Shown here piece by piece: positions 29,544 through 63,922 of a stretch of 64,000 nucleotides of DNA. Each line of letters begins with the position of its first letter. Within the stretch, counting starts at the first letter, position 1. The position numbers and the translations under genes were made by a program. Source of the stretch: a virus; IMG/VR virus record IMGVR_UViG_3300042197_004429, positions 96,001-160,000 of that record, one strand, 5' to 3'. The notes under the pieces are model-generated. The model worked only from the letters and a program-made list of their open reading frames with translations, was not told the origin of the DNA and searched no databases.

Positions 29544-29870
29544 AAAAAAATTATTAATTATAGATAAATAATTCTAACAAAAAAGGTATTTTTGAAAAAC
29601 AAATCAAATATTATTGATTTAAGCGACTGCAATAAGATAGTTGTTTCCAAAATTATTCTATCTGTTGTGGGTTATTTTGAGTCTCAAGGAAAGAAAGTAA
29701 GTCTCAAAAAGAAACCACAAAAAACCCATAAAATCCTAACTGTACAAAAAACCACTTGACATAGTGCGTATAATGTATTGGTGGCCCAAAAATACACAGC
29801 CCCATAGCCCGCCCATAATTTTTTTGATACCAACTAGAGCGGCGTACCCCACCAACCGGAGAAACCGAAG

Positions 29871-31376
29871 ATGTCTGAGTGGTTTAGTGCCCATAAGGAT
29901 GGATTGCGTCAAATTGCGGAACGTTTAGTTGAACGCCGTGGATTCGGCATTGTAGGAGGAGAACTCTATCAGAACGTGATGGACACTAACGCAACCTCTT
30001 GCGTTATCACTCTGAATAAACTCGCTGGTCGTCCACTGGCTGAGTTGAGCGTTGAAGATAATGATCCTAATGGCTTTCCTGATTTGGCCCACGCCTGGAC
30101 TGTTTTTGCTCCTTCCTTGAAAAAGAGTGATCCTACTAAGGCTGGAAGATTTAATGTTGGCGAGAAAATGGTTCTTGCTTTTTGCAAAGAAGCCAAAATT
30201 CACACAACCAAAGGTCTTGTAGAGTTTAATCAAGAAGGTAGAAAAGAATATACTCGCAGGAAGAGAGAAGTCGGAACTGAATTTTGGGCTTTGATTGAGT
30301 GTAATCAAGAGCGTTATGATCAATTTATTGATTACATGAGAAAAATTATTGTTAGGCCAGGATTGACTTTGACGGTTAATGGAGAAATAATTCAATCTCG
30401 TGTCCCGCTCACTAAATTTGTTGAAAAACTACCCACAGAAATCGCTGGCGAGGATGGCATTCTTAGAAAATCAATACGCCAGACAGAACTTCAAATTTAT
30501 GAAGCATTGCCGGGAGAAGAGCCGTACTTGTATGAAATGGGAATTCCGGTGGTGGAAACCGGAGACAAGTGGCACTATAATGTTTTGCAAAAAGTTCCTT
30601 TGAATGTTGATAGGGATAACGTCACTCCTTCTTACCTAAGAAACTTGCGTGTTGTTGTTTTCAACAATATGCATGAAAAAATTGAAGAAAATGACGTTAC
30701 TTCTTCTTGGGTCAACGAAGCAGCAGATGATAAAAATTGCCTACCGGATGCTGTAGAAACTTTTCGTGTAAAGAGATACGGCGAGAAATCAGTTGCTTTT
30801 GATCCAACCAACCAAGAAGCAAATGCCGAGGCTGTGGCTCATGGCTATACTTTAATACCACCTAGGGGATTAAGTTCCGGTCAAAGAAAAAATCTTTACT
30901 CAGCAGGAACCCTGGTTTCTAGTAGTGATGCTTTTCCCTTGGCTGGCAAGGGTGCGTATAGCGATGATCCAAATGCAACGCCTGTTGAGGTCATCGAAAA
31001 AGATAAATGGACAGACGGAATGTGTTTGATCCACGAATATACAACAGAAGTTGCAAAAAGATTGCTGGGCAAGAAAGTAGATGTGAGATTCGTTAATTGT
31101 TCACGATACGCTTACAAGCCCTGGAGTGCGTGTTTTGCCAGAGGGCATTTGTTGTCAACTAGTTATTTTGATTACAACATTCACGCTCTAGGCAAAAAAT
31201 GGTTTTCAACAGGAGTTAATGAAAGCGTTGATGATTTAATTTTACACGAACTTGCTCATGAGTTTGAGTCTAATCACTTATCGGAAGATTATTATAAGGC
31301 TTGTACAAAACTAGGTGCCAGACTAAAGGCAGAGGTTTTGAGAGATTTTGATTGGTTTTTGAAGTTTGTTAAATAA
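29871..31376 (+). CDS. GHKL (Hsp90/MORC-like) ATPase fused to a C-terminal HExxH zincin-like domain
   Basis: ELYQNVMD, VEDND..GF, GRFNVGEK; LILHELAHE near the C-terminus. Confidence 0.75.
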   Translation: MSEWFSAHKDGLRQIAERLVERRGFGIVGGELYQNVMDTNATSCVITLNKLAGRPLAELSVEDNDPNGFPDLAHAWTVFAPSLKKSDPTKAGRFNVGEKMVLAFCKEAKIHTTKGLVEFNQEGRKEYTRRKREVGTEFWALIECNQERYDQFIDYMRKIIVRPGLTLTVNGEIIQSRVPLTKFVEKLPTEIAGEDGILRKSIRQTELQIYEALPGEEPYLYEMGIPVVETGDKWHYNVLQKVPLNVDRDNVTPSYLRNLRVVVFNNMHEKIEENDVTSSWVNEAADDKNCLPDAVETFRVKRYGEKSVAFDPTNQEANAEAVAHGYTLIPPRGLSSGQRKNLYSAGTLVSSSDAFPLAGKGAYSDDPNATPVEVIEKDKWTDGMCLIHEYTTEVAKRLLGKKVDVRFVNCSRYAYKPWSACFARGHLLSTSYFDYNIHALGKKWFSTGVNESVDDLILHELAHEFESNHLSEDYYKACTKLGARLKAEVLRDFDWFLKFVK

Positions 31377-31405
31377 TTCTTTTTCATTTTTCAAAGAAAG
31401 AAAAC

Positions 31406-32263
31406 ATGAATACTTTTGAGCATTATGCGCCCACAAAGTTATCTAAAGAAGAAAAAACTGAAATTGAAAACAAAATGAAAGAGGCTTTCTTTTGCTTCGA
31501 ATCTGTAGCGAAAGAAAAGTATGGGTTTCCGAATGTTAAAAAACTTAGAAATGATTACAAAAAAGGTTTGATCGATCTTTGTGGCGAAGCGAAAGAACTT
31601 ATGGAGTGGATGATTGCCAACGAACAAAGAATCATTGCTGGCTATATCAAAATGGTCAAGAAAATGGGTTTAACTCCAAGTTATCGAAGCAAAAGAAGAG
31701 GAGTTTCTTATAGCGACTATCTCCAAGAAGCCTGTTGTGCAATTTATGATGCGATGTATTTGTATAACGGAAAAAGTAAGTTCTCCACATATTGCTTTTG
31801 GTTAATCAAGAACAATATCATTAATTACAACAGATCCCAAGAAAGACAGGATGTTGTAGAGTATCATATTGATGAGATCAAACAACAGGTGTTCGATCTT
31901 CAAAGTCAAGGAATTACTGTTGAGAAGGCTGTTTCAAAATTATCCTCAACAGACGAATCTGTGTTTGGAACAATTCAGAAAGTTCAGTCCTCGCTTTTGG
32001 GCGAGTCAAGGTCTTTTCAAGATGGCGATGAAAGACTCTTGATGTGGAAGGCCATAGAAGAAACTCAACTTAGCGATCTTGAAAGAAATTTGGTGGACAA
32101 TTGCATCAATGGTAATCGTGGTCACATAGCCAGAATGGCGGAAACTGTTATAAATCCAAACACGGGAAAGTTATACACAAAACAAAGGCTCTCCCAAATT
32201 TTTATTCGTGCTTGTGAAAAAATTCGCAAAACCTATCGTAACAAGCAACGAGCCGCTGCCTAG
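31406..32263 (+). CDS. Sigma70-family-like RNA polymerase sigma factor
   Basis: Region 2-like SDYLQEA..AI..A...Y...KFSTYCFWLIK; region 4-like YTKQRLSQI..RA.EKIR. Confidence 0.75.
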   Translation: MNTFEHYAPTKLSKEEKTEIENKMKEAFFCFESVAKEKYGFPNVKKLRNDYKKGLIDLCGEAKELMEWMIANEQRIIAGYIKMVKKMGLTPSYRSKRRGVSYSDYLQEACCAIYDAMYLYNGKSKFSTYCFWLIKNNIINYNRSQERQDVVEYHIDEIKQQVFDLQSQGITVEKAVSKLSSTDESVFGTIQKVQSSLLGESRSFQDGDERLLMWKAIEETQLSDLERNLVDNCINGNRGHIARMAETVINPNTGKLYTKQRLSQIFIRACEKIRKTYRNKQRAAA

Positions 32264-32297
32264 TTTGATACCAACTAAAGAGACACAAGGAGTAAAA

Positions 32298-33500
32298 ATG
32301 AAGACGCAACAACAAAAAGCTTTTTTTGATTGGACGGAAGACCAGAGTTTGGCACAAAAAGGCATTCAGCCTCCCAAGCCAAATGCTGACCAGATTCGCA
32401 CAATGCTTGCTCAAAATAACTCTAAGTGTCCGTTAAACGACATAGTTGTAAGCCCAGCCAATGAAGGCAATATGAGGATTTTACGCAGATTTGCTTTCTC
32501 CTCATATTGTTATCACAACCACACCTGTAGGGGTTGTAATTTTGGAATCTATAGCCCCCCAGGTCAGGGTAAAACTTTTGTTGTGAAAAAGTTTGCTGAA
32601 ACAATTGGCATTCCTTTTGTTTTTGTGCAAAGCAGTTCGCTGGATAACAACTTTATGTTGTTTCAGCAAATCTCTGAAACTTTGGAAAAGTTCGGAACTC
32701 CTTTGGTTCAAGAACACCATAAGGATCGGGACTTTTATTTGCCACCATGCATTGTGTTTTTTGATGAAGCGCATGAACTAAAAGATTCTATGACAAAGGG
32801 ATCTTTATTGAATGCGATGGAGCCAAATGATGCGATGATGGTTGTGAGAACTCCTGGCAAAAATGGTTCAACTTTTCGTGTTGATTGCTGGGAGGTTTGT
32901 TGGATCGCAGCCACCACGGAGCGTGGCGATCTTTTTGATGCTTTTGAAAGCCGTCTCAGCACTGCTATCGAATGGCATCCTGCCGAGGGTGACGAATTGG
33001 TTCAAATTGTAAAGCACGGTTTGACCAACAAAGTTAAAACCGGAGAATTACCTTACGCTCCACCCGACGATATTTGTGCATTGATTGCAAAATATCAAAA
33101 GGTTCCTCGTTTGGCAATTCATGGCTTTGGTACAAAGGTTGTTCAACACAAGATGTATATGCCAAGTTGTTCTTGGCGTGAGTGTTGCGATGTTGTGGCG
33201 AACGATATTGGCATGAACAACTTTGGTTTGACCAAAAAGCAAATGGTTATTCTGTCTGCTCTTGGGCAGCGACCAATTGCCGAAAATCGTCTTGCTGACA
33301 TTGCTCGTTGCAGGTTGGCTCAAATTAAAAAGTACGAACTGCCAGCATTGATGCAATACTCGGCAGGCGGTCCTTTTGTAATCAGTGTTTCTGGTAAGGG
33401 TCTTTGTATCACCAATGCCGGAATATCGTTACTCGATAAAATGAATATAGAACACAAGGGTTCAAAAGTTACCGCAGAGTTTTTTGAATCTCGGCGTTGA
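32298..33500 (+). CDS. RuvB-like AAA+ ATPase
   Basis: SPPGQGKT, FFDEAH, IAATTERG..FESR, VPRLA, GLTKKQ..IL. Start refined to 32298. Confidence 0.7.
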   Translation: MKTQQQKAFFDWTEDQSLAQKGIQPPKPNADQIRTMLAQNNSKCPLNDIVVSPANEGNMRILRRFAFSSYCYHNHTCRGCNFGIYSPPGQGKTFVVKKFAETIGIPFVFVQSSSLDNNFMLFQQISETLEKFGTPLVQEHHKDRDFYLPPCIVFFDEAHELKDSMTKGSLLNAMEPNDAMMVVRTPGKNGSTFRVDCWEVCWIAATTERGDLFDAFESRLSTAIEWHPAEGDELVQIVKHGLTNKVKTGELPYAPPDDICALIAKYQKVPRLAIHGFGTKVVQHKMYMPSCSWRECCDVVANDIGMNNFGLTKKQMVILSALGQRPIAENRLADIARCRLAQIKKYELPALMQYSAGGPFVISVSGKGLCITNAGISLLDKMNIEHKGSKVTAEFFESRR

Positions 33501-33575
33501 AAACAATGTTGTTAAAGATTTTCAATTCGATTAGAATGATGACTTCACTCAAACCCCAACAAGTGGAGTTATCAC

Positions 33576-34202
33576 ATGGAATCTTTAAAAAGCGAAGTTA
33601 AGACGTATTACGAAGGTGGAAGAGGCAAAAAACAATGTTCAAAGTGCTACAAATATGTTGCCGCAGTAACAAAAATTTGTGCTTGCGGATCTGAATTTGC
33701 AGCAAAGACAAATTTTAAGGCCGAAATTTCCACCTTCTCAACCGGGGGAAGAGGCAAAAAAGAGTGTCCCGATTGTAGAAAGTTTGTTGGTGCAATAGTT
33801 CCAAAATGTGTTTGTGGTTTTGATTTTAAGCAAGCAAAAATTTCTAAAAAGGATGCGTTATCTCAATCAATTAGATCAGCACTACAAGCAGCAAACTTAC
33901 AATCTCAAGAAAAACTTACATTTAGCCCTGAGTTTGCTTCTTTAATGGTCGGCTGTAAATCAACAATAATTGCACCAGCAGGAAGTTGTCCTCATAAACT
34001 CGATAGCACAGAACCTGAGAAGATAGACGAATGGATTAGCAAGGTGCGATTGTCGTTTAAAAACAAGCAACAATTTCTAACAATCTCCGGAGTAATTTAT
34101 TTCATTCATCAATTTTTTAATATGTTTAGTCCAGAATACAAGACTGTCAGAGAGTACGTGGAAAAAAGTTTGGGTTCAGAAAGAAGTTTAGGTCTTAGTT
34201 AA
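33576..34202 (+). CDS. Protein with two tandem zinc-ribbon repeats
   Basis: GGRGKKQCSKC..V....KICACG and GGRGKKECPDC..V....KCVCG. Confidence 0.7.
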   Translation: MESLKSEVKTYYEGGRGKKQCSKCYKYVAAVTKICACGSEFAAKTNFKAEISTFSTGGRGKKECPDCRKFVGAIVPKCVCGFDFKQAKISKKDALSQSIRSALQAANLQSQEKLTFSPEFASLMVGCKSTIIAPAGSCPHKLDSTEPEKIDEWISKVRLSFKNKQQFLTISGVIYFIHQFFNMFSPEYKTVREYVEKSLGSERSLGLS

Positions 34203-34229
34203 TACCAACTAGTGCGTCGGAGAATAAAA

Positions 34230-34637
34230 ATGAACACACCAGAAAAACAGCCGATTGTTTTGTCGATGATTTCACAGGGGACACCGGAGTATCCTCGTTT
34301 CTACATAGCCGATCAATATCTTCGTTATTGGACGGGGGATGGTTGGACCGAGCAAAAAGATGATAAAAACGCATTGATGTATGCCGATTCAAACAAAGCA
34401 CTCGTTGATATGAATCGGTTGCTGGTGCTTCAACATGAAAACAAAGTTGTTAAAAGATATAAAGCGCCTATTTACATAGAAGTTTTTTCTGATCAGGAAA
34501 TTCCTTTGCGTGATTTAAAGATGTGGCTTTTTAAAGCAACAAAACTACTGATTGACTCACCAAAAAATGGGAATGGTCCAGTTGCCGGTTCTCTTGGTAC
34601 TTGTAGAATTGAATACTCCGAAATGGAAAGTTACTAA
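34230..34637 (+). CDS. Hypothetical protein
   Basis: SD GGAG before ATG 34230. Confidence 0.65.
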   Translation: MNTPEKQPIVLSMISQGTPEYPRFYIADQYLRYWTGDGWTEQKDDKNALMYADSNKALVDMNRLLVLQHENKVVKRYKAPIYIEVFSDQEIPLRDLKMWLFKATKLLIDSPKNGNGPVAGSLGTCRIEYSEMESY

Positions 34638-36461: not shown

Positions 36462-36676
36462 AATTTTTTGGTTTAAAAATTTTAGATTTTTTTGCTTAAA
36501 CCATTGATTTCAAGCCATTTAAAGCGTTTTGTTAACGATAAAAAAAAATTTCGGTATTGCTATTGACGGCTTCTTTAAAAATTTTCTTGACTTTTAGTTT
36601 TTCTCTGCAAAGATTGATTTGAGGGCGAGGTTGCCCCGAGTTTTTACTTTTTAAGAATGGAATCGAGGAATAACCG

Positions 36677-36886
36677 ATGCTTGTTTTAACCAGAAAAGAA
36701 GGCGAACAGATACGGATTGGCAACAGTGTCACCATCACTTTAGTGTGCATTAATGGCGACAGAGCAAGGATTGGAATCGACGCTCCAGAAAACATTCCAA
36801 TTGACAGGGCGGAAATTGCGATAGCAAAGATTAATGGCGTGGCTCCGAAAAAGTTTAAGAAACTTAATCAAAACCAAAGATGGTAA
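36677..36886 (+). CDS. csrA: Carbon storage regulator CsrA/RsmA (second copy)
   Basis: MLVLTRKEGEQIRIG...I.G.RARIGIDAPENIPIDRAE. Confidence 0.9.
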   Translation: MLVLTRKEGEQIRIGNSVTITLVCINGDRARIGIDAPENIPIDRAEIAIAKINGVAPKKFKKLNQNQRW

Positions 36887-37537: not shown

Positions 37538-37586
37538 TATAATTGATACTATCTAGCAGGACGCACCCCCATCTAAAAGGAAGTTT

Positions 37587-38777
37587 ATGAAATACCCAGT
37601 TAGTTTGTCACGCACAATTTCTAAGCGCATTCGACCAGAAAAGATTCAAGCCCAAGTGGATTTTTTGATCCAAAGAGCCATGAACGGCAGTCGTGGTAGG
37701 TGTTGGACTTTTGAGTGCGAAAATGTTAACGGCCCAGAGTCCACTCCCGCTGGTTGGAGATATTCTTGTGATGTGATTTTTGAAAAAACCAGCGGTAAAG
37801 GAATTGGTGGAGAAATCGAATTTAAGCAGTGGCAAGACATTAAAGCCATGTTGGCCCAAACAGGTAAAAATTCAAAATTCCAAGATAGCCCTTGGACGAT
37901 CACCGACAACAACGAAACAGATGCAGAACCAGACGTTGAAGAAAACAATGGTTCGGTTGAAGGTGTGAGTACTGTTGCTGCCTGTGTTTCGGACAAAGTT
38001 TTAGATTGGCAAGATCTGAAATTTCCCGAAGAGTTGCTGGAAGGAGACGAAGCACTGGCTGGTCATCCGGCTTTTTGTGACTTGTATGATCTTGGTCCTC
38101 AAATCAGAACTGTGCTTTCTGCTATCAAGCGTGCGGTTGATACAAATGGTGCCAGCAGATACCACTCTGTTTTGTATGGTGAGCCTGGGTGTGGAAAGAC
38201 TAGCACTCTTCGTGCCGTGGAAAAACTTTTTGGTCCCGGCTCGGTGTTGCATTTGGATGCAACAACTACAACCAAGGCTGGCATTGAAAAATTGTTTTTT
38301 AATGAGTTGAAGCAATACCCGAGACTTGTTTTTCTTGAAGAGGCAGAAAAGGCGCCTGAAGATGGTCTTAAAATTTGGTTGGGTGCTTTGGATGATCGTG
38401 GAGAACTTCGCAAGGTAAACTTTCGTCAAACACAGGTGCGTGAAATACAAATATTGTTTTTCTGCACCGCCAACAACAAGCGTGCTTTTGACAATATGAT
38501 GGGAACCGGTAGCGGCGAACCCGGCGCATTGTCTAGTCGCTGTGTAAATGAAATTCAATTTCCCCGACCTGCCGAAAGTACGCTTCGAAAGATTTTAGAA
38601 AAAGAAATTGATCTTAAAGGTGGAAATAAAAAGTGGGTAACTCCTTGTTTGGATATTGCTCGTGAATTGAAAGTTGCAGATCCAAGAAAAGTTAAAGCGT
38701 TCCTTACTGGTGGCGATAGACTTTTAGATGGATCTTTTCAAGAAGATCAAAGGTCGATTCGCAAAGTCAATGGTTGA
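37587..38777 (+). CDS. AAA+ ATPase, distantly RuvB-like
   Basis: YGEPGCGKT, VFLEEAEK, FFCTANN, ALSSRC. Confidence 0.75.
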   Translation: MKYPVSLSRTISKRIRPEKIQAQVDFLIQRAMNGSRGRCWTFECENVNGPESTPAGWRYSCDVIFEKTSGKGIGGEIEFKQWQDIKAMLAQTGKNSKFQDSPWTITDNNETDAEPDVEENNGSVEGVSTVAACVSDKVLDWQDLKFPEELLEGDEALAGHPAFCDLYDLGPQIRTVLSAIKRAVDTNGASRYHSVLYGEPGCGKTSTLRAVEKLFGPGSVLHLDATTTTKAGIEKLFFNELKQYPRLVFLEEAEKAPEDGLKIWLGALDDRGELRKVNFRQTQVREIQILFFCTANNKRAFDNMMGTGSGEPGALSSRCVNEIQFPRPAESTLRKILEKEIDLKGGNKKWVTPCLDIARELKVADPRKVKAFLTGGDRLLDGSFQEDQRSIRKVNG

Positions 38778-41176: not shown

Positions 41177-41177
41177 C

Positions 41178-42191
41178 ATGAGAAAATTAGCATCAATACA
41201 AACTATTAAATTTGTTAGACCCATACCAAACGCAGATGCAATTGAGTGTGTCGGTGTTCTTGGTTGGGAATGCGTGTGTAAAAAAGGTGAATTTCAAAAT
41301 GATGATAAATGTGTTTATTTTGAAATTGATAGTTTGTTGCCAGAGATGGAAGTATTTGAATTTTTAAGAAAAAGTTGCTATAGAAAAGATCTGAATAAAT
41401 TCAGGCTAAAAAGTATTAAGTTGCGTCAGCAATTAAGCCAAGGTCTTGCTTTACCTTTGAGTTTATTTCCTGAGTTATACCATCTAGAAGTCGGCACAGA
41501 CGTAACTGATTTGCTGAATGTTGAAAAGTACGAGCCACCAATCCCTGCTCAAATTCAAGGTGATGCCAAAAAGTTTGTTTGGCCTATTGCAAAAACAGAT
41601 GAGGTTAGAGTTCAAACTGACGAGGGGCTTGCTTTAATTTCTAATCTTGTTGGCCATCCTTATTATGTTAGTCTTAAATTAGATGGAACAAGTTGTTCTT
41701 TTGTTATTGATCCATCCGACAATGAATTTCATGTTTGTGGAAGAAACTATAGTTACAAGCACAAGCCAAATCATAGTTTTTGGATTATAAACGAACGATA
41801 CCAACTAGAAGAACGCTTGAGATCAATCGGTGGCAACTTGGCACTTCAAGGAGAGTGTGTGGGTCCAGGAATTCAACAAAATAAACTTGGATTACCCATT
41901 ATTGATTATTACGTTTTTAACGTGGTTGACACATCAAATCGAAAAAGATTATCGCTTGAAGATTCTTTAAATGTTACAAAAGAACTTAAATTAAATTTTG
42001 TTCCAATACTGGAAAAGGGCGATTCATTTAATTACAACATGGAACAGTTGCTTGAAAAAGCAAAAGGAAAGTATCGTGAACATTTTGAGAATGCGAAGCA
42101 GCATCAAGAACGTGAAGGAATAGTGATTCGAAGTTTGTGTGGATCAGTTAGTTTCAAAGCCATAAATAACGAATTTCTCCTACAGGAATAA
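41178..42191 (+). CDS. RNA ligase, DRB0094/Rnl2-like family
   Basis: MRKLASIQ..PIPNADAIE..LGW..VYFEIDSLLP; KLDGTS; QGECVGPGIQ; EGIVIR; FKAINNEFL. Confidence 0.92.
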   Translation: MRKLASIQTIKFVRPIPNADAIECVGVLGWECVCKKGEFQNDDKCVYFEIDSLLPEMEVFEFLRKSCYRKDLNKFRLKSIKLRQQLSQGLALPLSLFPELYHLEVGTDVTDLLNVEKYEPPIPAQIQGDAKKFVWPIAKTDEVRVQTDEGLALISNLVGHPYYVSLKLDGTSCSFVIDPSDNEFHVCGRNYSYKHKPNHSFWIINERYQLEERLRSIGGNLALQGECVGPGIQQNKLGLPIIDYYVFNVVDTSNRKRLSLEDSLNVTKELKLNFVPILEKGDSFNYNMEQLLEKAKGKYREHFENAKQHQEREGIVIRSLCGSVSFKAINNEFLLQE

Positions 42192-45805: not shown

Positions 45806-45880
45806 CTTTTAATACTAACTAGACTTTCGCAAAAAGGCGTGGTTTTCCTCGCCTTTTTGCTTTTCTTGAAAGGATTTCAT

Positions 45881-46315: not shown

Positions 46316-46348
46316 AATACCAACTAAGGATGGTGGAAAGGAACCAAA

Positions 46349-48457: not shown

Positions 48458-48754
48458 GCGATACCAACTAGTAACGAGAAACCGAGAACAGATTGATTTT
48501 CACAAAAAGGATAAACAAAAATGAAAATTGCTGATGAAGATGTTAGAGACAACGCTGATGAATTCGATTGGTTTTGTTCAATAAACGGCTATAGTCCAAG
48601 GTGGTTGAAGCTGATGATTCCTGTCTTGATAGAAGCATGGAAAAACAATGATAACAACACAGTTGATAAAATTAAAAAAGAACTATTTATTGATGGCAGA
48701 ATGAAGTAATATTTAAATTTATTTACGGCGAAAACAGACATAAACGGAGTAGTT

Positions 48755-51672: not shown

Positions 51673-52086
51673 ATGAACATTAGCGATTTAGATATTGAAA
51701 ATTTATATTATCATTTAGCACATAATTTTAATTATCGTTGTGATCATAAGTTGGTTCAAGAGTTTGATTGGATTGTTTCCAATCTGGAACCTCATGGCAC
51801 GCCAATTTATTTTGATACGTTACTAAATAAAGTACAATTGACTCAGGGCGTTGACAATTTAGATTTTGAAAAACCTTCAAAAAAACATTTAATTGCTGGT
51901 TTGAAAAAATTGTTAAAGCATGATCTTGTTGAAATTAATGGTGAAATTAAACACATACAACACGTTCCAAAAAAATTACCCAAAAGAACTGCTCAAAAAA
52001 TTAATGAGATTAGTTTAATTGCCAAAAAAACAAAAAGAGTAAAGAAAATAAAAAATGCTAAAAGAGGTGGGGAGAAAAGTGCATGA
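51673..52086 (+). CDS. Winged-helix-like protein, paralog of 52083-52340
   Basis: WIV...P.YFD.L..KVQ...KPSK..L.AGLK.LL...L pattern shared with the next ORF. Confidence 0.55.
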   Translation: MNISDLDIENLYYHLAHNFNYRCDHKLVQEFDWIVSNLEPHGTPIYFDTLLNKVQLTQGVDNLDFEKPSKKHLIAGLKKLLKHDLVEINGEIKHIQHVPKKLPKRTAQKINEISLIAKKTKRVKKIKNAKRGGEKSA

Positions 52087-52340
52087 TTGATTTAGAAAAA
52101 AATTGTTATTCGTTACACCCTCAATTCAACCCTGCCCACAGATCGGTTAAGATCTACAACTGGATAGTGAATCAAATCAAAGAAGAATCACACCCGGTTT
52201 GTTTTGATGTTATATTTTCAAAAATTCAACATGATTTTGAAAATAGCATTAATAAAGAAGAGCCTCCATCAAAGGAACAAACCGTGGAGGGTATTAAAAA
52301 TTTGCTATCCGAGAATTTGATAATTGTTGATACCAACTAG
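52083..52340 (+). CDS. Winged-helix-like protein, paralog of 51673-52086
   Basis: YNWIV...PVCFD.I..KIQ...PSK...EGIK.LL..NLI; stop codon supplied by the 12-bp motif. Confidence 0.55.
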   Translation: MIDLEKNCYSLHPQFNPAHRSVKIYNWIVNQIKEESHPVCFDVIFSKIQHDFENSINKEEPPSKEQTVEGIKNLLSENLIIVDTN

Positions 52341-52503: not shown

Positions 52504-53088
52504 TTGTGTTTAACCAAATATCCAAAAATCAGTGGGTTGAGCATCAAAAAAACTATGAGAAGCAAAAAAAGTAGTCTTGGACCAATTTTAAGTTTTGTTG
52601 AGGTTGCTCAAAATCGAGGTTGGAAATACGTTCCATGTATGATTGTTCAAAACGGTCGCAGAGTTTGTAATCCAGAAGCGATTCGTTTGAACGACGGAAT
52701 ATATGCTACCATTGTTAGTCCAGATGGTGTCACTAAGGTTGCCTTGGATCACACTTTGATATATTATCACAATGGTAATGTTTGGCGAGGAGACCCAACC
52801 GATGTTAGGCAAAATTTAATTATATTTGCTGCTTTGGTTGTTGAACAAAGTCACCGCAAAAGCGGTCATGCGACTCACGCAATGAAAAAATTGTTAGAAA
52901 TTGCCAATGATCTCAATATGGTTGTTATGTTAGAAGCGTCCCCGATTCAAAAATTTTCTTCAAAAACTAAAAACATCACACAAAAAAAGTTGATACGTTG
53001 GTACAAAAAATTAGGATTCGTAGCAGCGTATCCCAATCAAGGCGAACAAATACTTTGCCACCCCGCTCCTCCAGTGGATACTAACTAG
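52504..53088 (+). CDS. GNAT-family acetyltransferase
   Basis: LVVEQSHRKSGHA (R..G.A) and LIRWYKKLGF. True start probably downstream of 52504. Confidence 0.75.
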   Translation: MCLTKYPKISGLSIKKTMRSKKSSLGPILSFVEVAQNRGWKYVPCMIVQNGRRVCNPEAIRLNDGIYATIVSPDGVTKVALDHTLIYYHNGNVWRGDPTDVRQNLIIFAALVVEQSHRKSGHATHAMKKLLEIANDLNMVVMLEASPIQKFSSKTKNITQKKLIRWYKKLGFVAAYPNQGEQILCHPAPPVDTN

Positions 53089-54617
53089 ATTTTTGTTCTT
53101 ACCAAGAAAACACAAACATGAATTATGACATTCTTTACGTTGCTGATGGAGAAATTTTTAAAGTCGGCCCCTTTCTGTCTGAGGTGGAGGCAATAGAATA
53201 TATTCGCAACAACAACGGTGAATCAGGTGAGTTTGATATAAACAATCAACATATTTATATCATTGATTCGCAACTTGGATTAAATGAAATTTATCTAGAA
53301 GATTTGGGTGAGGTCGATGATTAAAAAGACAATTAAAAAATTACATCAAGTTCAGCCAGGGGAGGTTTTTGAATACGTTCATCCTCTTGTTCCGGGTATA
53401 GGCGGAAAGTGCATTCGTGTTTTTGGCACGAAATACAATGTGTTATGCTTGAACAGTTTTCAAGTTGGCATGAGTGATTTAGGCGAAGAAGTCAGGATCA
53501 TAGGTAAAATGAATTATAGTCTTTTTGAAGAAAGTGTTAATTCAAGATTCGATGAATTATTTGCTGCCGCTGTTGAGGGTTTGGTAGAGTATTATGAAGA
53601 ACTTGAGGATGCGAGTCTTGTTTTAGAGATTAAAGAAAGAATCGAAGACATAGACACAGGTAATGATCAGAATGATTATGTGTCTATTAAAAATTTAGTT
53701 GAGAACCAAGTTCAAAATTGGATTGTTGACAAACGATTTATCTAATTATTCAATAGAAAACTAATATGAGAAAGTATCAAGTAACTTTAGTTAGACGAGT
53801 TGGAAAAGTAGTAAGCACTTTTACTATGGATGTCTCTGCAAGTAATCGCAGAAGTGCCGCTATGGGAGCCGAAAGTTCAGCAAATAAATTTGATCCCAAT
53901 GATGATCAAAAAAAGTTGACAGGCAGAGGTTGGAAAACTCAGAAGGTGGTTTCTTCAAGCGATACCAACTATGAAGCACAAGGAGAAAAGAATGACGATT
54001 AACATGGTAGTAGCCGCTAACGGATTCGACGGTCCAGATTTTTACTTTTGTAAAGTAGAGTGCAGCCAAGAGCAATATAATGACGGAGAACATTATGATG
54101 CCGCAAAGCGTGCAGCACGTGGTAACGGATACGATGATCCAATGGTTGCTTTTGATGAAAATGATTCACCATCTAAAAGTTTTTTCAAATTGTTTGAGTG
54201 GAAAACAGCAAGCACCCACAAGGTCTGAATGTTTTCCAGACGTTGCACCGTGGTTGGACAACCCATCTGATTTGTATGATGAATTACCCACAGAAGACGT
54301 TGCGTATGATGAATAGGAGATTATCGTGATACGTGCAGAAGTTCATAGTGATGATTTTGTTTTCAAGACTAACTTTGATGCAACTCGATGGTTTGAAAGT
54401 GCGTCAAATGAAGAGTTGATTAATTTAATAAATTGTGGATTTGGAGGAGATTATCCAGCCGATGATGTTGCTCGTTATTTTGCAGAAACAAACGAAGATG
54501 TTGCCGATGTTTTTGATTATTTGAACATTAAACCTGTTGGTTTTGAGTGTCACGTTAATGTGAACGATGCAGAAGATTGGATTAGGATTAACCGCCCAAA
54601 TTTGAAAGATCATATAG

Positions 54618-55925: not shown

Positions 55926-56536
55926 ATGCAGGATTACTGGACTGATCTTGAATCAAGAGCGGCAATAAATTTGATTTGTGCTTTGGACGCAGAGATAGTA
56001 GCCAAACAACAAACTATTTTGCTGTGCTGCGATAAAGATTTTCCAGAAATTTTTAGGCAAAAAATTTGGGATTCAATAAACAATCTGTCTCTTGAAACAG
56101 GGTCAGGTCGCATACAAGATAATGTCGATTTTTACAAACAATCAAAAAGAAGTTTGTTGCTTGGTTCTCTTAAAAACATTTGGCAAGAAATTGAAAGCAA
56201 AAACTATCCAACACGCTTTGGTATGCTCCTAGGTGATCCTGCAAGCAATCTTGCTGCTAGAGATTCGTATAACAAAGAAATGGAAGAATTTGACATTAAA
56301 CAAAGTGGCGAAACCAAATAAACAATACCAACTAGTAGCAGACAGTTTATGATTTTCTTGTTTTTATTTTTCTTGGTGATTGTTGCATTTGCAAATCAGA
56401 TTGCTCAATACTATCGGTACAATCTATTTCTTTATAAAAAAGAAATAGAGCAACGAGAATACGCAGAGTTTCAACTACAGATGCAGCGTGAACGTGCTAT
56501 TCAACAATTGAACAGAATTAGAAAATACTACGAAAA

Positions 56537-57184
56537 TTGACCATGATCAAAGTTATCAAACCACTACTGTGTACTAAACAGCATTATTTTGTTGCTGTTA
56601 GCATGGGCGTTGATAGTGTTGCTGCTTTGTTTTGGTTAAGATCTAAAGGATATTCTATTACTCCTTTGCATTTTAATCATAATTTACGTGCTCAAAATGG
56701 AACAATGCACGAACGATTTCTGAGTCTTTGCAAAGACTTGAATCTTAAGTGTGAAAGCGATATTGGCGTTGCACTCAAAACCGAAAATGATTGCCGACAA
56801 GCAAGATTAAATTTTTATTCAAGAGTTGCTAAGGGTGGAACAGTCATCACAGCCCACCATTTGAATGATTGGGTTGAAAGTTATCTGCTTAATTGTTTGC
56901 GTGGTCATCCTCGTCATAGCCCAATTAAATTTAAAAGTAAGTTTGAAGAATTTGATGTTGTTCATCCTTTTCTTTTAACTAGAAAAAAAGACTTTGAGCA
57001 ATATCTTGTTCGAAATAAATGGGATCACTATGTTGTAAAAGATGAATCGAATTTAGTTTCAAAAGGAAGCAGAAGAAACTGGATTAGAAACACTATTCTT
57101 CCACAAATGCAATCCCAAAAATTATCACTCGAAAAATTTGCCAGAAAAAAGATTCAAACAATGCTGGTAAAGATCGAACATTGA
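56537..57184 (+). CDS. tilS: tRNA(Ile)-lysidine synthetase, minimal catalytic domain
   Basis: VAVSMGVDS (PP-loop variant), HFNHNLR, R..R..F, TAHHLND..E, HPFL, DESN, RRNWIRN; lacks the C-terminal domains. Confidence 0.85.
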   Translation: MTMIKVIKPLLCTKQHYFVAVSMGVDSVAALFWLRSKGYSITPLHFNHNLRAQNGTMHERFLSLCKDLNLKCESDIGVALKTENDCRQARLNFYSRVAKGGTVITAHHLNDWVESYLLNCLRGHPRHSPIKFKSKFEEFDVVHPFLLTRKKDFEQYLVRNKWDHYVVKDESNLVSKGSRRNWIRNTILPQMQSQKLSLEKFARKKIQTMLVKIEH

Positions 57185-58145: not shown

Positions 58146-58326
58146 CTTGTGTTTGATAAAGCATAAAAACTTTTTTAGTTCCTAAATTTTTGACACTAAC
58201 TAAAGGATTGGTAAAAAATATTTAGCAAGCACTACTTTATCATCATTTATTCCCCTGGTTTTGTTTTGGGTGTTGGTCTTGTCGCAATTTTTGTGTCCAG
58301 CACTCTGTGCTAAAGGAGGTGCTTTG

Positions 58327-59898: not shown

Positions 59899-59927
59899 TT
59901 GGCGATAAACAACAATCGTGTTATACT
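59899..59927 (+). promoter_or_regulatory. Putative sigma70 promoter overlapping a copy of the 12-bp motif
   Basis: TTGGCG-N17-TATACT with extended TG; continues into AACTAG. Confidence 0.55.
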
Positions 59928-59955
59928 AACTAGGTGGCACAAAGGACTGCCCACC

Positions 59956-60363
59956 ATGAATCTTGATAGAATTATAGAAATTACTTTCGCTTTGTCTGGT
60001 AAAAGAGACACAACGCAGCGTTGTCGTCATTTTTCTTTTATATGCGACCGAAACAGGATACTATCTATAGGCATGAATAGTCCTAAGACGCATCCTTTTA
60101 ATCTAAAATATAATTACATAAACAAACAAAAACACAACATTAGAAACATTGTTGGAACTCACTCCGAATTAAGTGCGGTTTTAAAACTCGGTTCTGATGA
60201 GTGTCGTGGTCTTACAATAATCAACACAAGAGTAAATCGCAAAAACGAAATAGATTTTAGTCATCCTTGCATCGGCTGCATGGATATGATAAACAAGATA
60301 GGCTTTAAGAGATTGGGCTATACTACAAGGGATAAAAAGTTTGAATTTGTAAACTTGATTTGA
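59956..60363 (+). CDS. Cytidine/dCMP deaminase-like Zn protein
   Basis: THSE...SHPCIGC. Start refined to ATG 59956. Confidence 0.8.
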   Translation: MNLDRIIEITFALSGKRDTTQRCRHFSFICDRNRILSIGMNSPKTHPFNLKYNYINKQKHNIRNIVGTHSELSAVLKLGSDECRGLTIINTRVNRKNEIDFSHPCIGCMDMINKIGFKRLGYTTRDKKFEFVNLI

Positions 60364-60454
60364 ACGGAGTCTAATGTGAGAAGTTTATATTGTTTTTTGG
60401 TGTTCTTTTTTCAAGGTGGTTCTCATTTTCCTTTCAAGAAAGGTTTAAAAAACA

Positions 60455-63400
60455 ATGAATGATTCAATTCAAAGATTGGTGGATTACGCAGTTGAAAAAA
60501 ACTTGAGCGTAAAAAAAATCCGTGAGCGATGCCATAATGCCCTCAACCCTGTGCGAAGTTTTTGCAAAGACATTGAACAACTCAGGTCTGGAAGACCCCC
60601 AACAGACATTCCGTTGCTTGAATTAATATCTTATTCTAATTTGGGAGACGCTGTTTCTTTTGTTGAATTTGATAGTGATGCTGAGTCGGATGCTGGTGTT
60701 TTTCGATTTGTTTCTATTTTTGATCAAAATGATGTTAAAATCCGTCTTGAAAGATACGATGTTGAAGACCAAAAATTCCATCCAGATAACAAATACATTG
60801 CACCATCTGATGCTGTTGTGATGGTTATGGATTGGGCTTTGGCAAATAACGTGGTGTTGCCATAATGAACAATAAAGTTAGAAACCCACAACAATTGATG
60901 GTGTTGATGAGACAATATTGTGAAAAAAATGATATTATTTCTTTTGTTGATCAATTGAGTTTTGAAGAAATAACTTTATGCACTATGGTTTCTGAGTTGT
61001 TGTTGAGCGATCCTTATCTTTCTCATTTGGAAAGAACTGAACGAGAGTGTCAATTTGATTTTTTCAACAATTTGAGAAAAAGCAGACTGGAAGCAAATTA
61101 GATTTTTTAAGGATTGTTTATGAGCGACCGTATAACCCGTGACGAAGTTGAATATGTTGAAATGCTGTGTGTTCAAACAAACACACCAGTTCCGCAAGAT
61201 TTAAAAAGTTATACCGTAAAACAGTTGTTTGATTTCATGAATGAACTGAGAAAACGAACAGCAAACGACAATCGAACCAATGTGGCACTTGATAATCGCT
61301 TGCCGAATGCTGCTAACATTAATTTTGATGGTGCTGGTGAATAATGAGAACTGTGGCAAAAACGCCCTCTGGTTGGTACGAACGCAATTGTGCGAAGTTA
61401 ACCGAGAATGAGCAATACCAACTAATGCACGGCACAGAGGAAGAGTGTGCAGAGGTTTGGAGTCGATTCAAAAACGATTCGATCACCAAATTGTGCGAAA
61501 CGGCTGAATTGGATAATATTTTTGAAAATTTCAACCTAAAAGGTGAATTGGTGATTGCCAATTTGATGTTGCACAGCAAACGTGCCACAGTTACAATGAA
61601 ACACAACGGTAACTTCTACAGAACTGAACACACATGGTAAAGTTAAATGAACAAGACGTTACTGATTTGCTAGAGGTTGTAAAAGAACAAGATGCCGTTA
61701 TTTTAGCATTATTGGAATCGTCAAATGAACAAACACGACCAATGGTGGAAGAACTACAAGACATTAACAAAGTGATTGTAGAACTTCTTACACAACCCGT
61801 TCACAAGATTGAGAGGATGTTTTGATGAAACACAAATTTGACTGCGACGTTGATGGCGGCATTTTGGTGATGAGTGCATTACGATATGCGTTAAATAGAC
61901 ACACCTATGTGCCTGCTAGTGTTCAAGATTGGATACGCAAATATTGGAATGACCTCGACAGAAATACTAAAGCCCACGTTGTGTGGGATACTTTTGAACA
62001 CCTATACACTGTGCGAGTTGTTTTTAATCAAACCGAACATCAGTGTGATTACGATAGTTGGAAGCGATTTGGTATCGAAATGTATCATCAACTAGATTAC
62101 GACAACAGGAAGTGGGTCGATGACAAATGCCGTGATGATTGGTACAAAGACAACATCGACGTTTGGCAAAAGCAGACGGTTTAGAAATCACCAGACTGAA
62201 ACGCTGATGCGATACCTACTAGCGTGCAAGCGGTCACTCGCTGTGTTTAAATCAGAACGGATTGCTGAAATAGAGTTAGAACTTAAACACGAACTAGAAA
62301 CAAGACACAATGCGGCTGTTTGCGATATTCAAGAATGACGAGTTTCTTGGAACCGTGAAGAACTTCAATGGTTCTAGTCTTAAGCGTTGGGCTAGCGAAT
62401 TTTATAAAGTTAATTTGAGTGATGTGCTTGTGTACGAGTTAGTGGAAGTAAAGGACTAATTATGAATTGTGAGAAAGAGTTAAATCTGACTGATCTAAAG
62501 CACGAAGATCAACACTTAACTAGAACTTTCCGTGCTTGGTTGGATAAAGTTCGTGCAGGTGTTGAGGAAGAGTTAGACGAACACAACAAAATTGTTGTGC
62601 GTTGGCACGAATGTAACTTTATGGGTCTTTGCAGTATTGATTTTTGCTACGGCAGCGTTGATGCAAAACACAGCGATTTGATTCGTACAATTTTGAATCG
62701 TTGGGACAATATTGTTGGTGATGCAATACGATACAGTGATAATTTAGCACTTCGTTTAGGTGTTGATAAAACTTTGGTGTGGCGTAGTTTTTTCGACGAT
62801 GAAACAAACGATGAGTGACGAATGGTTAATTGAAAATGGTATCGAACCAGCAGACGTTACCGACAATCTGCGGAATTTATTAAGTTTGTGTGACGATACC
62901 AAATACGCTGATATGCTTCGTGTTTTAATAATTATGGAGGAAGAGTGGACACACAAGAATTGATTCGACAAGCCTATGCTTTAGGTTTTGAACGTGGTCG
63001 ATTTGAAGCGGTTTGCGAGTATTGTAACACAGAAGGTTTGGGCGAAGAGTTTTTGAGTCTTGTTGGTAAAACTATTGAAAAAGACCACTGTGATTTTGAG
63101 ATATTGAGTGGTTGTAAGTTAGGTGAACAATAATGAACACTGTAATTTATGTTGTCAAAATCTTAAATAATCGCACTGAGAGTTTTGATATTATTGGCGG
63201 TGTGTTTGATTGTTTGGAAAAAGTAAATCAGTTTATTGAAAGCAATAATCTTGATAGAGTTTCTGAAGTTAATAAAGTTATTTTAAACCATCATCATGTA
63301 GTGACAGTTGGAAATGCTGAATCTTGATTCTGCTGTTGTTCGTGGATTAAGCGAGTTGCGAAATCGTGACTTTCAAATAATTGAAGTTTCAGAGCAAGAG

Positions 63401-63922
63401 TTTATTCAATCTATGAAATGTCTAGGAAAGAATGAATCTAAGATTTGCATTCATTTAATTGCTTTAAAAAACAACACTCAAATGATTGTGAACGATGGGT
63501 TTCGAATTGTTTTAAAAAATACCAACTAGGAACATCATGGAAAAGCAAAAGTTTTACGAACTTGGCGAGAAGATTGCTAAACTCATGGAAAGTTACAAAC
63601 TGAACGTGTACGATCTTGAGTTTATTAACGAACTGATTGAAAAGACAATCGAACGCAACGAAAAAGAGTGTAGTTATTAACAATCAAGGAGGTCATTGAC
63701 ATGAAACCTATTCAAATCTCCAAAGAAGAATTAGTTGCCGCTACGAGATGCGCCGAATACATCTATGATAGTGAATGGTTGCAAGAGGGATACCAAGATT
63801 TTATTGAAAATGGCAACGATCCACGTGATCATATCATTTATCAAGCAGCAGTATTTTTGGGTAAAGAAGAACCGCTTCAAGTTGATATAAACGAATATCT
63901 AAAAGAACACGTTGGCAATTAA
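60455..63922 (+). other. Run of about 12 small, tightly packed hypothetical ORFs
   Basis: Overlapping start/stop codons and SD motifs; no recognisable domains. Confidence 0.6.

What the first reader, a model, noticed from the sequence alone, without database searches (positions are those of the whole stretch)
29826..63529. Strand- and region-restricted 12-bp motif RATACYAACTAR punctuating the right-hand gene array
Seen: 12 exact and about 6 near copies, all on the + strand between 29.8 and 63.5 kb. I saw none by eye in the first 29.8 kb or on the minus strand. A rough base-composition estimate gives well under one chance copy per window. Most copies sit at gene junctions 7-58 nt before a start codon, usually with an SD in between; the exact copies at 41797 and 61414 are inside ORFs. 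No conserved upstream -35 box is visible. Inference: a single-box phage-specific promoter, by analogy to T4 late TATAAATA, possibly read by the sigma-like protein at 31406-32263. Alternatives are an RNA-processing site, a protein-binding site, or a recombination scar used to assemble the gene array.
Basis: partly seen in the sequence, partly recalled or inferred. Interest (0 to 1): 0.8.

Follow-up and report, generated by a model that had tools for sequence, protein, structure and literature searches.

The report
Private promoter box of huge phage
A 13-base signal repeated in front of genes on one strand of a huge uncultured T4-like phage is most likely the phage's own promoter class, probably read by a phage sigma factor encoded at the head of the same gene array, and it also supplies the stop codon of the preceding gene.

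Summary
The window has 12 exact copies against 0.1 expected. The whole 177-kb contig has 25, all on the + strand and all in its last 51 kb. A 459-kb relative has 96 forward and none reverse.

The signal is T-R-ATAC-Y-AACTA-R with no -35 box. A pyrimidine-purine step lies exactly 6-7 nt downstream (79% vs 23% background), as expected for a start site of bacterial RNA polymerase. That places the box at about -19 to -7.

Boxes are kept at orthologous sites and upstream of the same genes in relatives whose sigma proteins share only 37-46% identity. Three lineages use different boxes. In each lineage where the sigma gene's own upstream region could be read, a box precedes the sigma gene. The phages encode no RNA polymerase of their own, and host-type promoters in the array are at chance level.

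In 69 of 96 copies the box supplies the upstream gene's stop codon. In 35 of 96 a hairpin follows it directly.

Best reading: a phage-specific, probably middle-class, promoter read by the array's own sigma factor. No transcript data exist.

This scan has already found similar private promoter arrays in other huge phages.

The parts
29755..29774 (+). Conserved CTTGACA-N7-TATAAT element about 50 nt upstream of the first box. It is a candidate host-type 'bootstrapping' promoter for the GHKL-sigma operon, but the 7-bp spacer is unexplained.
   Evidence: It is the only block conserved upstream of the first box in own, G001, L128, L130 and L136. L135 has TGGACT-N16-TACAAT instead.
29826..29837 (+). 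Box 1 (TGATACCAACTAG), 33 nt before the first gene of the array. No + strand gene lies upstream.
   Evidence: 12/12 conserved in G001.
29871..31376 (+). 501-aa GHKL/HATPase_c_3-like ATP-binding protein, the first gene of the array.
   Evidence: No Pfam hit. Weak sacsin-type ATPase hit. The nearest Atlas clusters carry HATPase_c_3 in 16-33% of members. Present before the sigma gene in most relatives but absent in L137.
30854..30865 (+). Near copy (AATACCACCTAG) inside the 501-aa gene, 540 nt before the sigma gene. Possible internal promoter.
   Evidence: 19.8 bits. Kept in G001 as GATACCACCTAG.
31406..32263 (+). Sigma-70-family protein (285 aa), the candidate reader of the box.
   Evidence: Pfam Sigma70_r2, E 3e-8. 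PHROG sigma factor. Model pLDDT 82. Foldseek matches full-length primary sigma factors at probability 1.0. Family of 96 clusters at E<=1e-30.
32267..32278 (+). Box 2, 19 nt before the AAA+ gene.
   Evidence: A box is in the same place in L128, L129, L130, L135, L136 and L137.
32298..33500 (+). AAA+ ATPase (400 aa), weakly clamp-loader-like, always next to the sigma gene.
   Evidence: Pfam AAA. phrog_168 clamp loader, E 6e-7. Synteny.
34201..34212 (+). Box 3. The TAA at its 5' edge is the stop codon of ORF 33576-34202. The next ATG is 17 nt downstream.
   Evidence: 12/12 conserved in G001.
37545..37556 (+). Near copy (GATACTATCTAG), 30 nt before AAA gene 37587-38777.
   Evidence: 12/12 conserved in G001.
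41797..41808 (+). Exact copy inside RNA-ligase-like ORF 41178-42191, probably not functional.
   Evidence: G001 has a change at an invariant position.
45811..45822 (+). Box followed at 45831-45858 by a terminator-like hairpin plus T-run. The next ATG is 58 nt downstream. Possible short RNA or attenuator.
   Evidence: Box and hairpin are both kept in G001.
46316..46327 (+). Box 21 nt before SNF2 helicase gene 46349-48457.
48460..48471 (+). Box whose 3' end is the exact breakpoint of a gene replacement between this phage and G001.
52329..52340 (+). Box whose TAG is the stop of ORF 52083-52340. The next ATG is 21 nt downstream.
53077..53088 (+). Box whose TAG is the stop of ORF 52504-53088. The next ATG is 29 nt downstream.
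53961..53972 (+). Near copy (GATACCAACTAT) before a small ORF.
   Evidence: 12/12 conserved in G001.
56324..56335 (+). Box 13 nt before ORF 56349-56540.
58192..58203 (+). Near copy (GACACTAACTAA).
   Evidence: 13.6 bits.
59922..59933 (+). Near copy (TATACTAACTAG).
   Evidence: 12.1 bits.
61414..61425 (+). Exact copy inside ORF 61344-61640, or abutting an in-frame ATG at 61425. Status unclear.
   Evidence: No orthologous alignment in G001.
62211..62222 (+). Near copy (GATACCTACTAG).
   Evidence: G001 has GATACCATCTAG.
63518..63529 (+). Box whose TAG is the stop of ORF 63308-63529. The next ATG is 7 nt downstream.

Best explanation
The box T-R-ATAC-Y-AACTA-R is the single recognition element of a phage-specific promoter class. 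It lies at about -19 to -7, and transcription starts at the purine 7 nt after it. Host core RNA polymerase is directed to it by a phage sigma-70-family protein, most likely the 285-aa sigma encoded as the second gene of the same array (31406-32263). That sigma gene lies behind a box, so it would reinforce its own synthesis. The first sigma molecules would come from a host-type promoter-like element just upstream of the first box. The regulon is the whole one-strand array of non-structural genes: about 51 kb on this contig fragment and about 93 kb with 96 boxes in the near-complete relative. The rest of the genome uses AT-rich T4-late-like boxes and a few canonical host-type promoters. Because the promoter needs no upstream element, it is packed against the preceding gene and supplies that gene's stop codon. 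In the densest part of the relative's array its last four bases form the foot of the preceding gene's terminator hairpin. The predicted start lies inside that hairpin's 5' arm, so box-initiated RNAs would escape termination. Shown here: motif statistics, anatomy, conservation and co-occurrence.
For: (1) Strong strand and region restriction: 25/0 in this contig and 96/0 in G001, with the backwards control at 0/1. (2) The box has sharp edges, no -35 box, and a Y-R step at offsets 17/18 in 73/96 copies. In the 72 copies without a G-run it is 57/72 against a 23% background (p 3e-23). It is 15/25 in this contig and 9/11 in L130 when aligned flush at the 3' end. (3) Purifying selection: orthologous boxes are 91.7% identical against 78.4% for their flanks. 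(4) Deep conservation: ATAC[CT]NACTA lies upstream of the same syntenic genes in L128, L129, L135 and L137, whose sigmas are 39-46% identical. (5) Lineage-specific variants sit in the same places: TGA[CT]GCCAACTAT in L136, CTGACGGACACCCGATAG in L130 (10-11 forward, 0 reverse), and TT[GA]NAGCTGTAC in LR756511.1 (6 forward, 0 reverse). The host-type promoter of the CsrA gene stays canonical in all of them. (6) A box precedes the sigma gene or its operon in every lineage where that region could be read. The same dual-promoter logic is described for phages 7-11 and phiEco32 (PMC4331800). (7) L137 lacks the ~500-aa gene but keeps the sigma and the boxes. (8) Neither phage has a T7-type RNAP domain, a beta-prime domain or a DFDGD motif. 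(9) Sigma-70-type promoter matches in the array are at chance, 50 against 49.2. (10) The L130 sigma, whose box differs at -12 to -10, is the one that departs in the region-2.4-like segment (VECMRHR where the others have [YF]W.[IV][KR]NR). (11) In L130, 3 of 11 boxes are followed at once by full intrinsic terminators. In G001, 35/96 boxes are followed by strong hairpins, 27 of which start at the first base after the box. Sequence downstream of the predicted start is no more structured than random (p 0.92), whereas sequence from the box end is (p 0.006).
Against: There are no transcript 5' ends and no biochemistry, and the phage is uncultured. The sigma has a highly conserved sigma-4-like C-terminus, yet no -35 element exists, and this is unexplained. 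The candidate bootstrapping element has a 7-bp spacer, which ordinary sigma-70 holoenzyme should not use. The last two boxes of G001's array are followed by structured non-coding sequence rather than by genes. The box at 45811 is followed by a complete terminator downstream of the predicted start. Both fit a 'gene-end' or processing role at least as well. The co-variation rests on four box types only.
Confidence: 0.57

Rival explanations
1. The box is a promoter but is read by something other than the array sigma. Candidates are the phage's 296-aa canonical sigma, which has its own host-type promoter and should be made first, or host holoenzyme redirected by a phage co-factor such as the conserved neighbouring AAA+ or GHKL protein.
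For: The 296-aa sigma gene is preceded by TTTACC-N17-TAGAAT, so it avoids the bootstrapping problem. The array sigma lies behind a box. The sigma-AAA+ pair is conserved and recalls the clamp-loader dependence of T4 late transcription (my knowledge).
Against: The 296-aa sigma matches RpoD/RpoS/SigG-type models over both region 2 and region 4, which predicts a two-box promoter. The boxes change between lineages together with the array sigma, which is always adjacent. L137 lacks the GHKL gene but keeps the boxes.
Confidence: 0.2
2. The box is an RNA-level or gene-end signal: a punctuation site where a long transcript from the conserved upstream promoter-like element is cut by a sequence-specific nuclease, or part of a stop-codon/box/hairpin termination module.
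For: Boxes overlap the upstream gene's stop codon in 69/96 copies. 35/96 are joined to a hairpin flanked by CTAG...CTAG, and 16 of those have a T-rich tail. Boxes bracket the array at both ends, with the last ones followed by no ORF. A conserved promoter-like element sits just before the first box.
Against: The first box has no gene upstream of it. Where full terminators follow the box (L130: the sigma gene and genes 6690 and 17549), a processed long transcript could not reach the next gene, and the box is the only conserved element that could restart transcription. The fixed Y-R step with unconstrained bases in between is typical of start-site choice. Most copies in this window have no hairpin at all. 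A 93-kb transcription unit would be needed.
Confidence: 0.12
3. The box exists mainly as a short recombination site that shuffles gene cassettes, as proposed for PeSLs, and any transcriptional role is secondary.
For: One gene replacement between this phage and G001 breaks exactly at the 3' end of box 48460. One transposed 9.4-kb block has a breakpoint 5-8 nt upstream of a box.
Against: HSP ends within 70 nt of a box number 5 of 40 against about 2.7 expected, which is not significant (my count). 13 bp is short for homologous exchange. The Y-R step, the sigma linkage and the conservation before core genes are not explained by this reading.
Confidence: 0.04

Closest known systems
Single-element promoters of phage-encoded sigma factors: phiEco32 gp36 / phage 7-11 (consensus TAATGTATA; PMC4331800) and T4 late promoters (TATAAATA, gp55; my knowledge)
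   Same: One conserved box in the -10 region with no -35 element. It is read by host core RNAP carrying a phage sigma. The sigma gene is preceded by both a host-type and a phage-type promoter (described for 7-11/phiEco32).
   Different: The box is longer (13 bp, about -19 to -7) and unrelated in sequence. The sigma belongs to a different, uncharacterised family with sigma-4-like and N-terminal domains. There are about 100 copies, against about 6 in phiEco32. The target genes are non-structural array genes rather than late genes. The box doubles as a stop codon and as the foot of a terminator stem.
PeSL / PmSL composite promoter-terminator cassettes of T4-type phages (PMC2839356, PMC4122927)
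   Same: They occur in T4-related phages. A repeated compact regulatory module lies in front of many small, variable ORFs. Promoter and stem-loop are combined. At least one ORF replacement is bounded by the module.
   Different: PeSL promoters are host sigma-70 two-box promoters (TTGACA-N17-TATAAT and variants), with the stem-loop upstream of the promoter. Here there is one phage-specific box, and the stem-loop, where present, starts at the box's 3' end and spans the predicted start site.
Autoregulated alternative (ECF-type) sigma regulons (my knowledge; TIGR02937 hit just under cut-off)
   Same: The sigma gene sits behind its own cognate promoter. Specificity diverges between paralogous or orthologous lineages, giving 'private' promoter-sigma pairs.
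   Different: ECF promoters have two boxes (-35 and -10), and ECF sigmas have only sigma-2 and sigma-4. This protein aligns structurally along full-length primary sigmas, and its promoters lack a -35 box.
Single-subunit phage RNAP promoters (T7/T3/SP6 type; my knowledge)
   Same: A compact, highly conserved single box followed by a purine or G-rich stretch, present in many copies on one strand.
   Different: No such polymerase is encoded. A start immediately after the box would put a complete terminator hairpin at the 5' end of many transcripts. The Y-R step lies 7 nt downstream, as for multisubunit RNAP.

Membership tests
Phage-sigma-dependent single-box promoter class (phiEco32 gp36 / T4 late type) | One conserved element in the -10 region and no conserved -35 element | tested here: met
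   Logos of 25 and 96 copies show information only at -1..+11, weak purines at +12-15, and Y-R at +17/18. Nothing exceeds 0.25 bit upstream.
Phage-sigma-dependent single-box promoter class (phiEco32 gp36 / T4 late type) | Transcription starts about 6-8 nt downstream of the element | tested here: inconclusive
   Only the sequence signature could be tested: Y-R at offset 17/18 in 76-79% of copies against a 23% background. No RNA data exist.
Phage-sigma-dependent single-box promoter class (phiEco32 gp36 / T4 late type) | The phage encodes a sigma-family protein and no RNA polymerase of its own | tested here: met
   G000 has two and G001 three Sigma70_r2 proteins. No PF00940, PF00623 or DFDGD.
Phage-sigma-dependent single-box promoter class (phiEco32 gp36 / T4 late type) | That sigma directs core RNAP to the element | not testable with these tools
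   Needs in vitro transcription or a reporter assay. Only co-occurrence and co-variation are shown.
T4 late promoter system specifically (gp55/gp33/gp45) | A small sigma-2-only factor (gp55-like), the consensus TATAAATA, and late structural genes as targets | tested here: not met
   The array sigma is 285 aa and matches full-length sigma A folds. The box is unrelated to TATAAATA, and the targets are non-structural genes. A separate 178-aa sigma-2-only protein and TATA-type boxes exist elsewhere in the genome.
PeSL cassettes of T4-type phages | A sigma-70-like -35/-10 early promoter | tested here: not met
   There is no -35 box. Sigma-70-type matches in the array are at chance. Definition taken from PMC4122927.
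PeSL cassettes of T4-type phages | A stem-loop just upstream of the promoter | tested here: not met
   In G001 the hairpins start at the 3' end of the box (27 of 35 at offset 0). In this contig 1 of 25 boxes has a terminator-like hairpin upstream and none downstream.
PeSL cassettes of T4-type phages | Association with indel or replacement junctions between close relatives | tested here: inconclusive
   One replacement lies exactly at a box and one breakpoint lies 5-8 nt from a box. The overall excess is not significant.
T7-type single-subunit RNAP promoters | A phage-encoded single-subunit RNAP | tested here: not met
   PF00940 is absent from G000 and from the 91%-complete G001. The control genomes lack this family too, so sensitivity was not verified.
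ECF sigma regulons | A two-box promoter (-35 AAC-type plus -10 CGT-type) and a sigma-2 + sigma-4-only protein | tested here: not met
   The promoter has a single box. The protein aligns over about 340 columns with full-length primary sigmas. TIGR02937 scores 41.5 bits, below its cut-off of 42.9.
ECF sigma regulons | The sigma gene is preceded by its own cognate promoter | tested here: met
   A box lies upstream of the sigma gene or its operon in own, G001, L128, L129, L130, L135, L136, L137 and LR756511.1.

The most novel reading that the evidence does not exclude
The box is the hub of a fully insulated one-gene cassette design. The same 13 bases would serve as the stop codon of gene n, as the foot of gene n's terminator stem, and as the promoter of gene n+1. 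Transcription would start inside the terminator's 5' arm, so new transcripts cannot form the terminator. The sigma family (96 or more clusters) would be a natural library of mutually orthogonal single-box sigma/promoter pairs that huge phages use to run about 100-promoter regulons independently of host sigma factors.
Probability: 0.3. Interest if true: 0.7.

Novelty: new variant of a known kind. Interest (0 to 1): 0.5.

Why it matters
If confirmed, this would define the promoter and candidate reader for roughly a fifth of a huge phage's genome, about 100 transcription units, where no transcription signals have been described. It would add an uncharacterised sigma family with at least four distinct single-box specificities. 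It would also show an unusually compact way of packing stop codon, terminator and promoter into about 40 bp. Such short, self-contained sigma/promoter pairs are what synthetic biology looks for as orthogonal expression parts. They would also let gene-expression classes of uncultured huge phages be predicted from sequence alone. The general phenomenon, a private promoter array in a huge phage, has already turned up several times in this scan, so this case is an additional and well-resolved example rather than a first.

Tried and rejected
1. Isolated-phage DNA and protein searches with the array and the sigma found nothing.
2. A 14-mer scan of IMG/VR gave only single chance hits, apart from the true relative.
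3. T7-like or multisubunit phage RNAP was rejected: no PF00940, no PF00623, no DFDGD.
4. Host housekeeping promoter was rejected. Sigma-70-type matches are at chance in the array. Canonical TTGAC-N15-17-TAnAAT promoters exist elsewhere (the CsrA and 296-aa sigma genes), and they stay canonical in relatives whose boxes differ.
5. A G-rich 'discriminator' as a general feature was rejected. The G-run belongs to a hairpin subfamily (24/96 copies), and the Y-R step holds without it.
6. Terminators directly upstream or downstream of boxes in this contig: 0-1 of 25.
7. Breakpoint enrichment at boxes is not significant.
8. ARAGORN and Rfam found no tRNA or known RNA family in the window.
The IMG/VR and metagenome locus scans returned only the known relative and a duplicate of L135.

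Full report
**Observation**

The pattern RATACYAACTAR occurs 12 times in the window, all on the + strand between 29826 and 63529. Dinucleotide-preserving shuffles give 0.10 copies on average. With one mismatch allowed there are 19 copies against 1.97 expected. Eighteen are on + in the same region and one is on - at 19063.

The window is bases 96001-160000 of a single 177,312-bp viral contig. Over that contig there are 25 exact copies, all on +, all between 125,826 and 176,116. There are none on - and none in the first 125 kb. A weight matrix trained on a relative's copies finds 34 sites of 10 bits or more on +, all inside the array, and 3 on -.

**What the genome is**

The contig has no close match among isolated phages. 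Its sigma-like protein is 95% identical to one on IMGVR_UViG_3300023179_000009 (G001), a 458,813-bp record estimated to be 91% complete. G001 encodes a T4 gp23-type major capsid protein (E 9e-87). My contig is thus a fragment of a huge T4-related phage.

DNA identity between the two arrays is 64-88%. In G001 the pattern occurs 96 times forward and never in reverse, all between 265,394 and 358,804. The last 22 kb has about one copy per 300 bp.

**Anatomy**

The 96-copy logo is T(-1), R, ATAC, C>T, AACTA, G>A, followed by weak purine preference for four bases. After that comes a pyrimidine at offset 17 and a purine at offset 18. Nothing upstream is conserved.

- The Y-R step is present in 73/96 copies, against 4-38% at neighbouring offsets.
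- It holds in the 72 copies that lack a G-run: 57/72 against a 23% background, p 3e-23.
- It holds in 15/25 copies of my contig.

A Y(-1)R(+1) step at a fixed distance, with unconstrained bases in between, is the usual signature of start-site choice by multisubunit RNA polymerase (established knowledge). It puts the box at about -19 to -7.

The distance from box to the next start codon has a median of 30-36 nt. Its 10th-90th percentile is about 10-56 nt in my contig and 17-70 nt in G001. A Shine-Dalgarno sequence usually lies in between.

**The box as a gene boundary**

- In G001, the T-R-A at the 5' edge is the stop codon of the upstream ORF in 51 copies.
- The TAG/TAA at the 3' edge is the stop codon in 18 copies.
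- Only 1 upstream ORF arrives in the third frame, which has no stop in the box.
- T(-1) is still present in 73% of copies where it is not used as a stop, so it belongs to the signal.

The upstream half of each putative promoter is therefore coding sequence. This explains why a self-contained single box is used.

**Hairpins**

In G001, 35/96 boxes are followed by a hairpin of -14 kcal/mol or stronger. Twenty-seven of these start at the first base after the box. They are typically GGGGG...CCCCC, flanked by CTAG on both sides, and 16 have a T-rich tail. Sequence from the box end is more structured than random (p 0.006). Sequence from the predicted start onward is not (p 0.92).

In the 61%-GC relative L130, 3 of 11 boxes, including the one before the sigma gene, are followed at once by full intrinsic terminators whose 5' arm contains the predicted start. 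Transcripts arriving from upstream would terminate there, while transcripts starting at the box could not form the stem. This is an inference.

My own contig shows almost no such hairpins. It ends before the region that corresponds to G001's dense part. The box at 45811 is an exception that does not fit: a complete terminator-like hairpin lies downstream of the predicted start, and it is conserved in G001.

**Conservation**

At 18 orthologous sites, boxes are 91.7% identical between the two phages against 78.4% for the 30-nt flanks. Most box differences fall at the degenerate R/Y positions. The in-ORF copy at 41797 is not conserved.

The sigma has relatives down to 37% identity. Their contigs share this synteny:

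- two minus-strand genes
- a ~500-aa protein
- the sigma
- an AAA+ protein
- further genes, then an RNA ligase and CsrA

L128, L129, L135 and L137 (sigma 39-46% identical) keep ATAC[CT]NACTA upstream of the same genes. Three lineages have different boxes in the same places:

| Lineage | Box | Copies forward / reverse |
|---|---|---|
| L136 | TGA[CT]GCCAACTAT | not tallied by strand |
| L130/L131 | CTGACGGACACCCGATAG | 10-11 / 0 |
| LR756511.1 (595-kb uncultured phage; sigma homologue E 4e-19) | TT[GA]NAGCTGTAC | 6 / 0 |

The L130 box aligns flush at the 3' end with ours (GAYACC...TAG) and keeps Y-R at the same offset in 9 of 11 copies. The LR756511.1 box also lies before that phage's sigma gene.

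In each lineage where the region upstream of the sigma gene or its operon could be read, a box sits there. By contrast, the CsrA gene has a canonical TTGAC-N15-17-TAnAAT promoter in every lineage. The hosts therefore use ordinary promoters, and the box tracks the phage lineage.

**Who reads it**

Neither phage has a T7-type polymerase domain, a beta-prime domain or a DFDGD motif. Sigma-70-type promoter matches in the array are at chance, 50 against 49.2. The phage encodes three sigma-family proteins:

- **296-aa sigma.** It has clear region 2 and region 4 matches to RpoD/RpoS/SigG models. Its gene is preceded by TTTACC-N17-TAGAAT.
- **178-aa sigma.** It has region 2 only and is seen only in G001.
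- **285-aa array sigma.** Its predicted structure (pLDDT 82) matches full-length primary sigma factors.

Genes outside the array are enriched for AT-rich TATAATA/TATATAAT boxes, which plausibly go with the small sigma. The array sigma is left for the box by elimination, by its constant adjacency, and by the box in front of its own gene.

The sigma of L130, whose box differs at -12 to -10, is the one that departs in the segment corresponding to region 2.4. This is suggestive but is a single case. L137 lacks the ~500-aa gene yet keeps the boxes, so that protein, a GHKL-type ATPase by the Atlas, is not required. The sigma family is large: 96 clusters at E<=1e-30.

**Bootstrapping**

Because the sigma gene lies behind a box, something else must make the first sigma. 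About 50 nt upstream of the first box, a block CTTGAC(A/G) or CTTGCCA, then N7, then TA(T/C)AAT, is the only sequence conserved among five lineages. L135 has TGGACT-N16-TACAAT in that place.

This looks like a host-type promoter, but the 7-bp spacer is wrong for ordinary sigma-70 holoenzyme. I leave this unexplained. The dual arrangement, a host-type plus a phage-type promoter before the phage sigma gene, is what was inferred for phages 7-11 and phiEco32 (PMC4331800).

**Rivals**

A punctuation or processing signal, or a gene-end module, fits several findings:

- the stop-codon overlap
- the hairpins
- the boxes at both ends of the array
- the last two boxes of G001, which are followed by structured non-coding sequence

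It is disfavoured by four findings:

- the first box has no gene upstream of it
- full terminators follow some boxes
- the Y-R step fits start-site choice
- most copies in this window have no hairpin

The recombination-site idea has one exact example, a replacement at the 3' end of box 48460, and one near miss. There is no significant overall excess of breakpoints at boxes.

**Comparison with known systems**

The closest functional analogues are the single-element promoters of phage sigma factors (phiEco32 gp36, T4 gp55). The closest architectural analogue is the PeSL composite promoter-terminator cassette of T4-type phages (PMC2839356, PMC4122927). The case differs from the first group in the box, the sigma family, the copy number and the target genes. 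It differs from PeSLs in using a phage-specific single box, with the stem-loop downstream of and overlapping the start rather than upstream.

I found no paper describing promoters of huge T4-like phages of this kind. This scan's own notes list similar private promoter arrays in other huge phages, so the phenomenon is recurrent.

**Limits**

The survey of more distant sigma-family members could therefore not be extended, and the two locus scans added no new lineage.

Noticed in passing
window 29755-29774: CTTGACA-N7-TATAAT: near-perfect -35 and -10 hexamers only 7 bp apart. The block is conserved about 50 nt upstream of the first box in five lineages, including a 61%-GC one. A second N7 copy lies at contig position 71866.
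   Followed up: partly
window 29871-33500: A conserved trio heads the array: a ~500-aa GHKL/HATPase_c_3-like protein, the sigma, and an AAA+ protein with weak clamp-loader similarity. The sigma-AAA+ pairing recalls clamp-loader-dependent T4 late transcription but was not tested.
   Followed up: partly
window 36588-36886: A phage CsrA homologue (36677-36886) lies behind TTGACT-N17-AAGATT. The same gene keeps a canonical host-type promoter in L128, L129, L130 and L136.
   Followed up: partly
window 45811-45870: A box is followed by a complete terminator-like hairpin (45831-45858) plus T-run before the next ORF. Both are conserved in G001. This could be a short RNA or an attenuator, and it does not fit the terminator-escape model.
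   Followed up: no
L126-L127 (G001 337,000-358,804): A dense run of about 300-bp one-gene cassettes. Each is built as box, then a GGGGG...CCCCC hairpin flanked by CTAG on both sides, then a T-rich tail, an SD and a small ORF that ends in the next box's TGA.
   Followed up: partly
L127 3677-3900 (G001 358,677-358,900): The last two boxes of the array are followed by strongly structured non-coding sequence instead of ORFs. An AT-rich gap and a differently controlled 492-aa gene come next.
   Followed up: no
G000 contig 157,060-157,105 and 166,497-166,550 (window 61060-61105; the second lies outside the window): About 50 bp of the 3' end of a gene is duplicated at the two borders of a 9.4-kb block that sits elsewhere in G001. 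One copy abuts a box.
   Followed up: partly
G000 contig 1-125,600 (window 1-29,600 and upstream): Genes outside the array are enriched for TATAATA / TATATAAT / ATATATAA within 80 nt upstream (for example 14 against 2.3 expected). This is probably a T4-late-like promoter class.
   Followed up: partly
L132 580-643 (G000 20,580-20,643): The 296-aa canonical phage sigma gene is preceded by TTTACC-N17-TAGAAT, a host-type promoter, so it is probably an early gene.
   Followed up: no
L141 (LR756511.1 108,001-158,000, minus strand): A published 595-kb uncultured phage has a distant homologue of the array sigma and its own strand-specific box, TT[GA]NAGCTGTAC (6 forward, 0 reverse at up to 1 mismatch).
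   Followed up: partly
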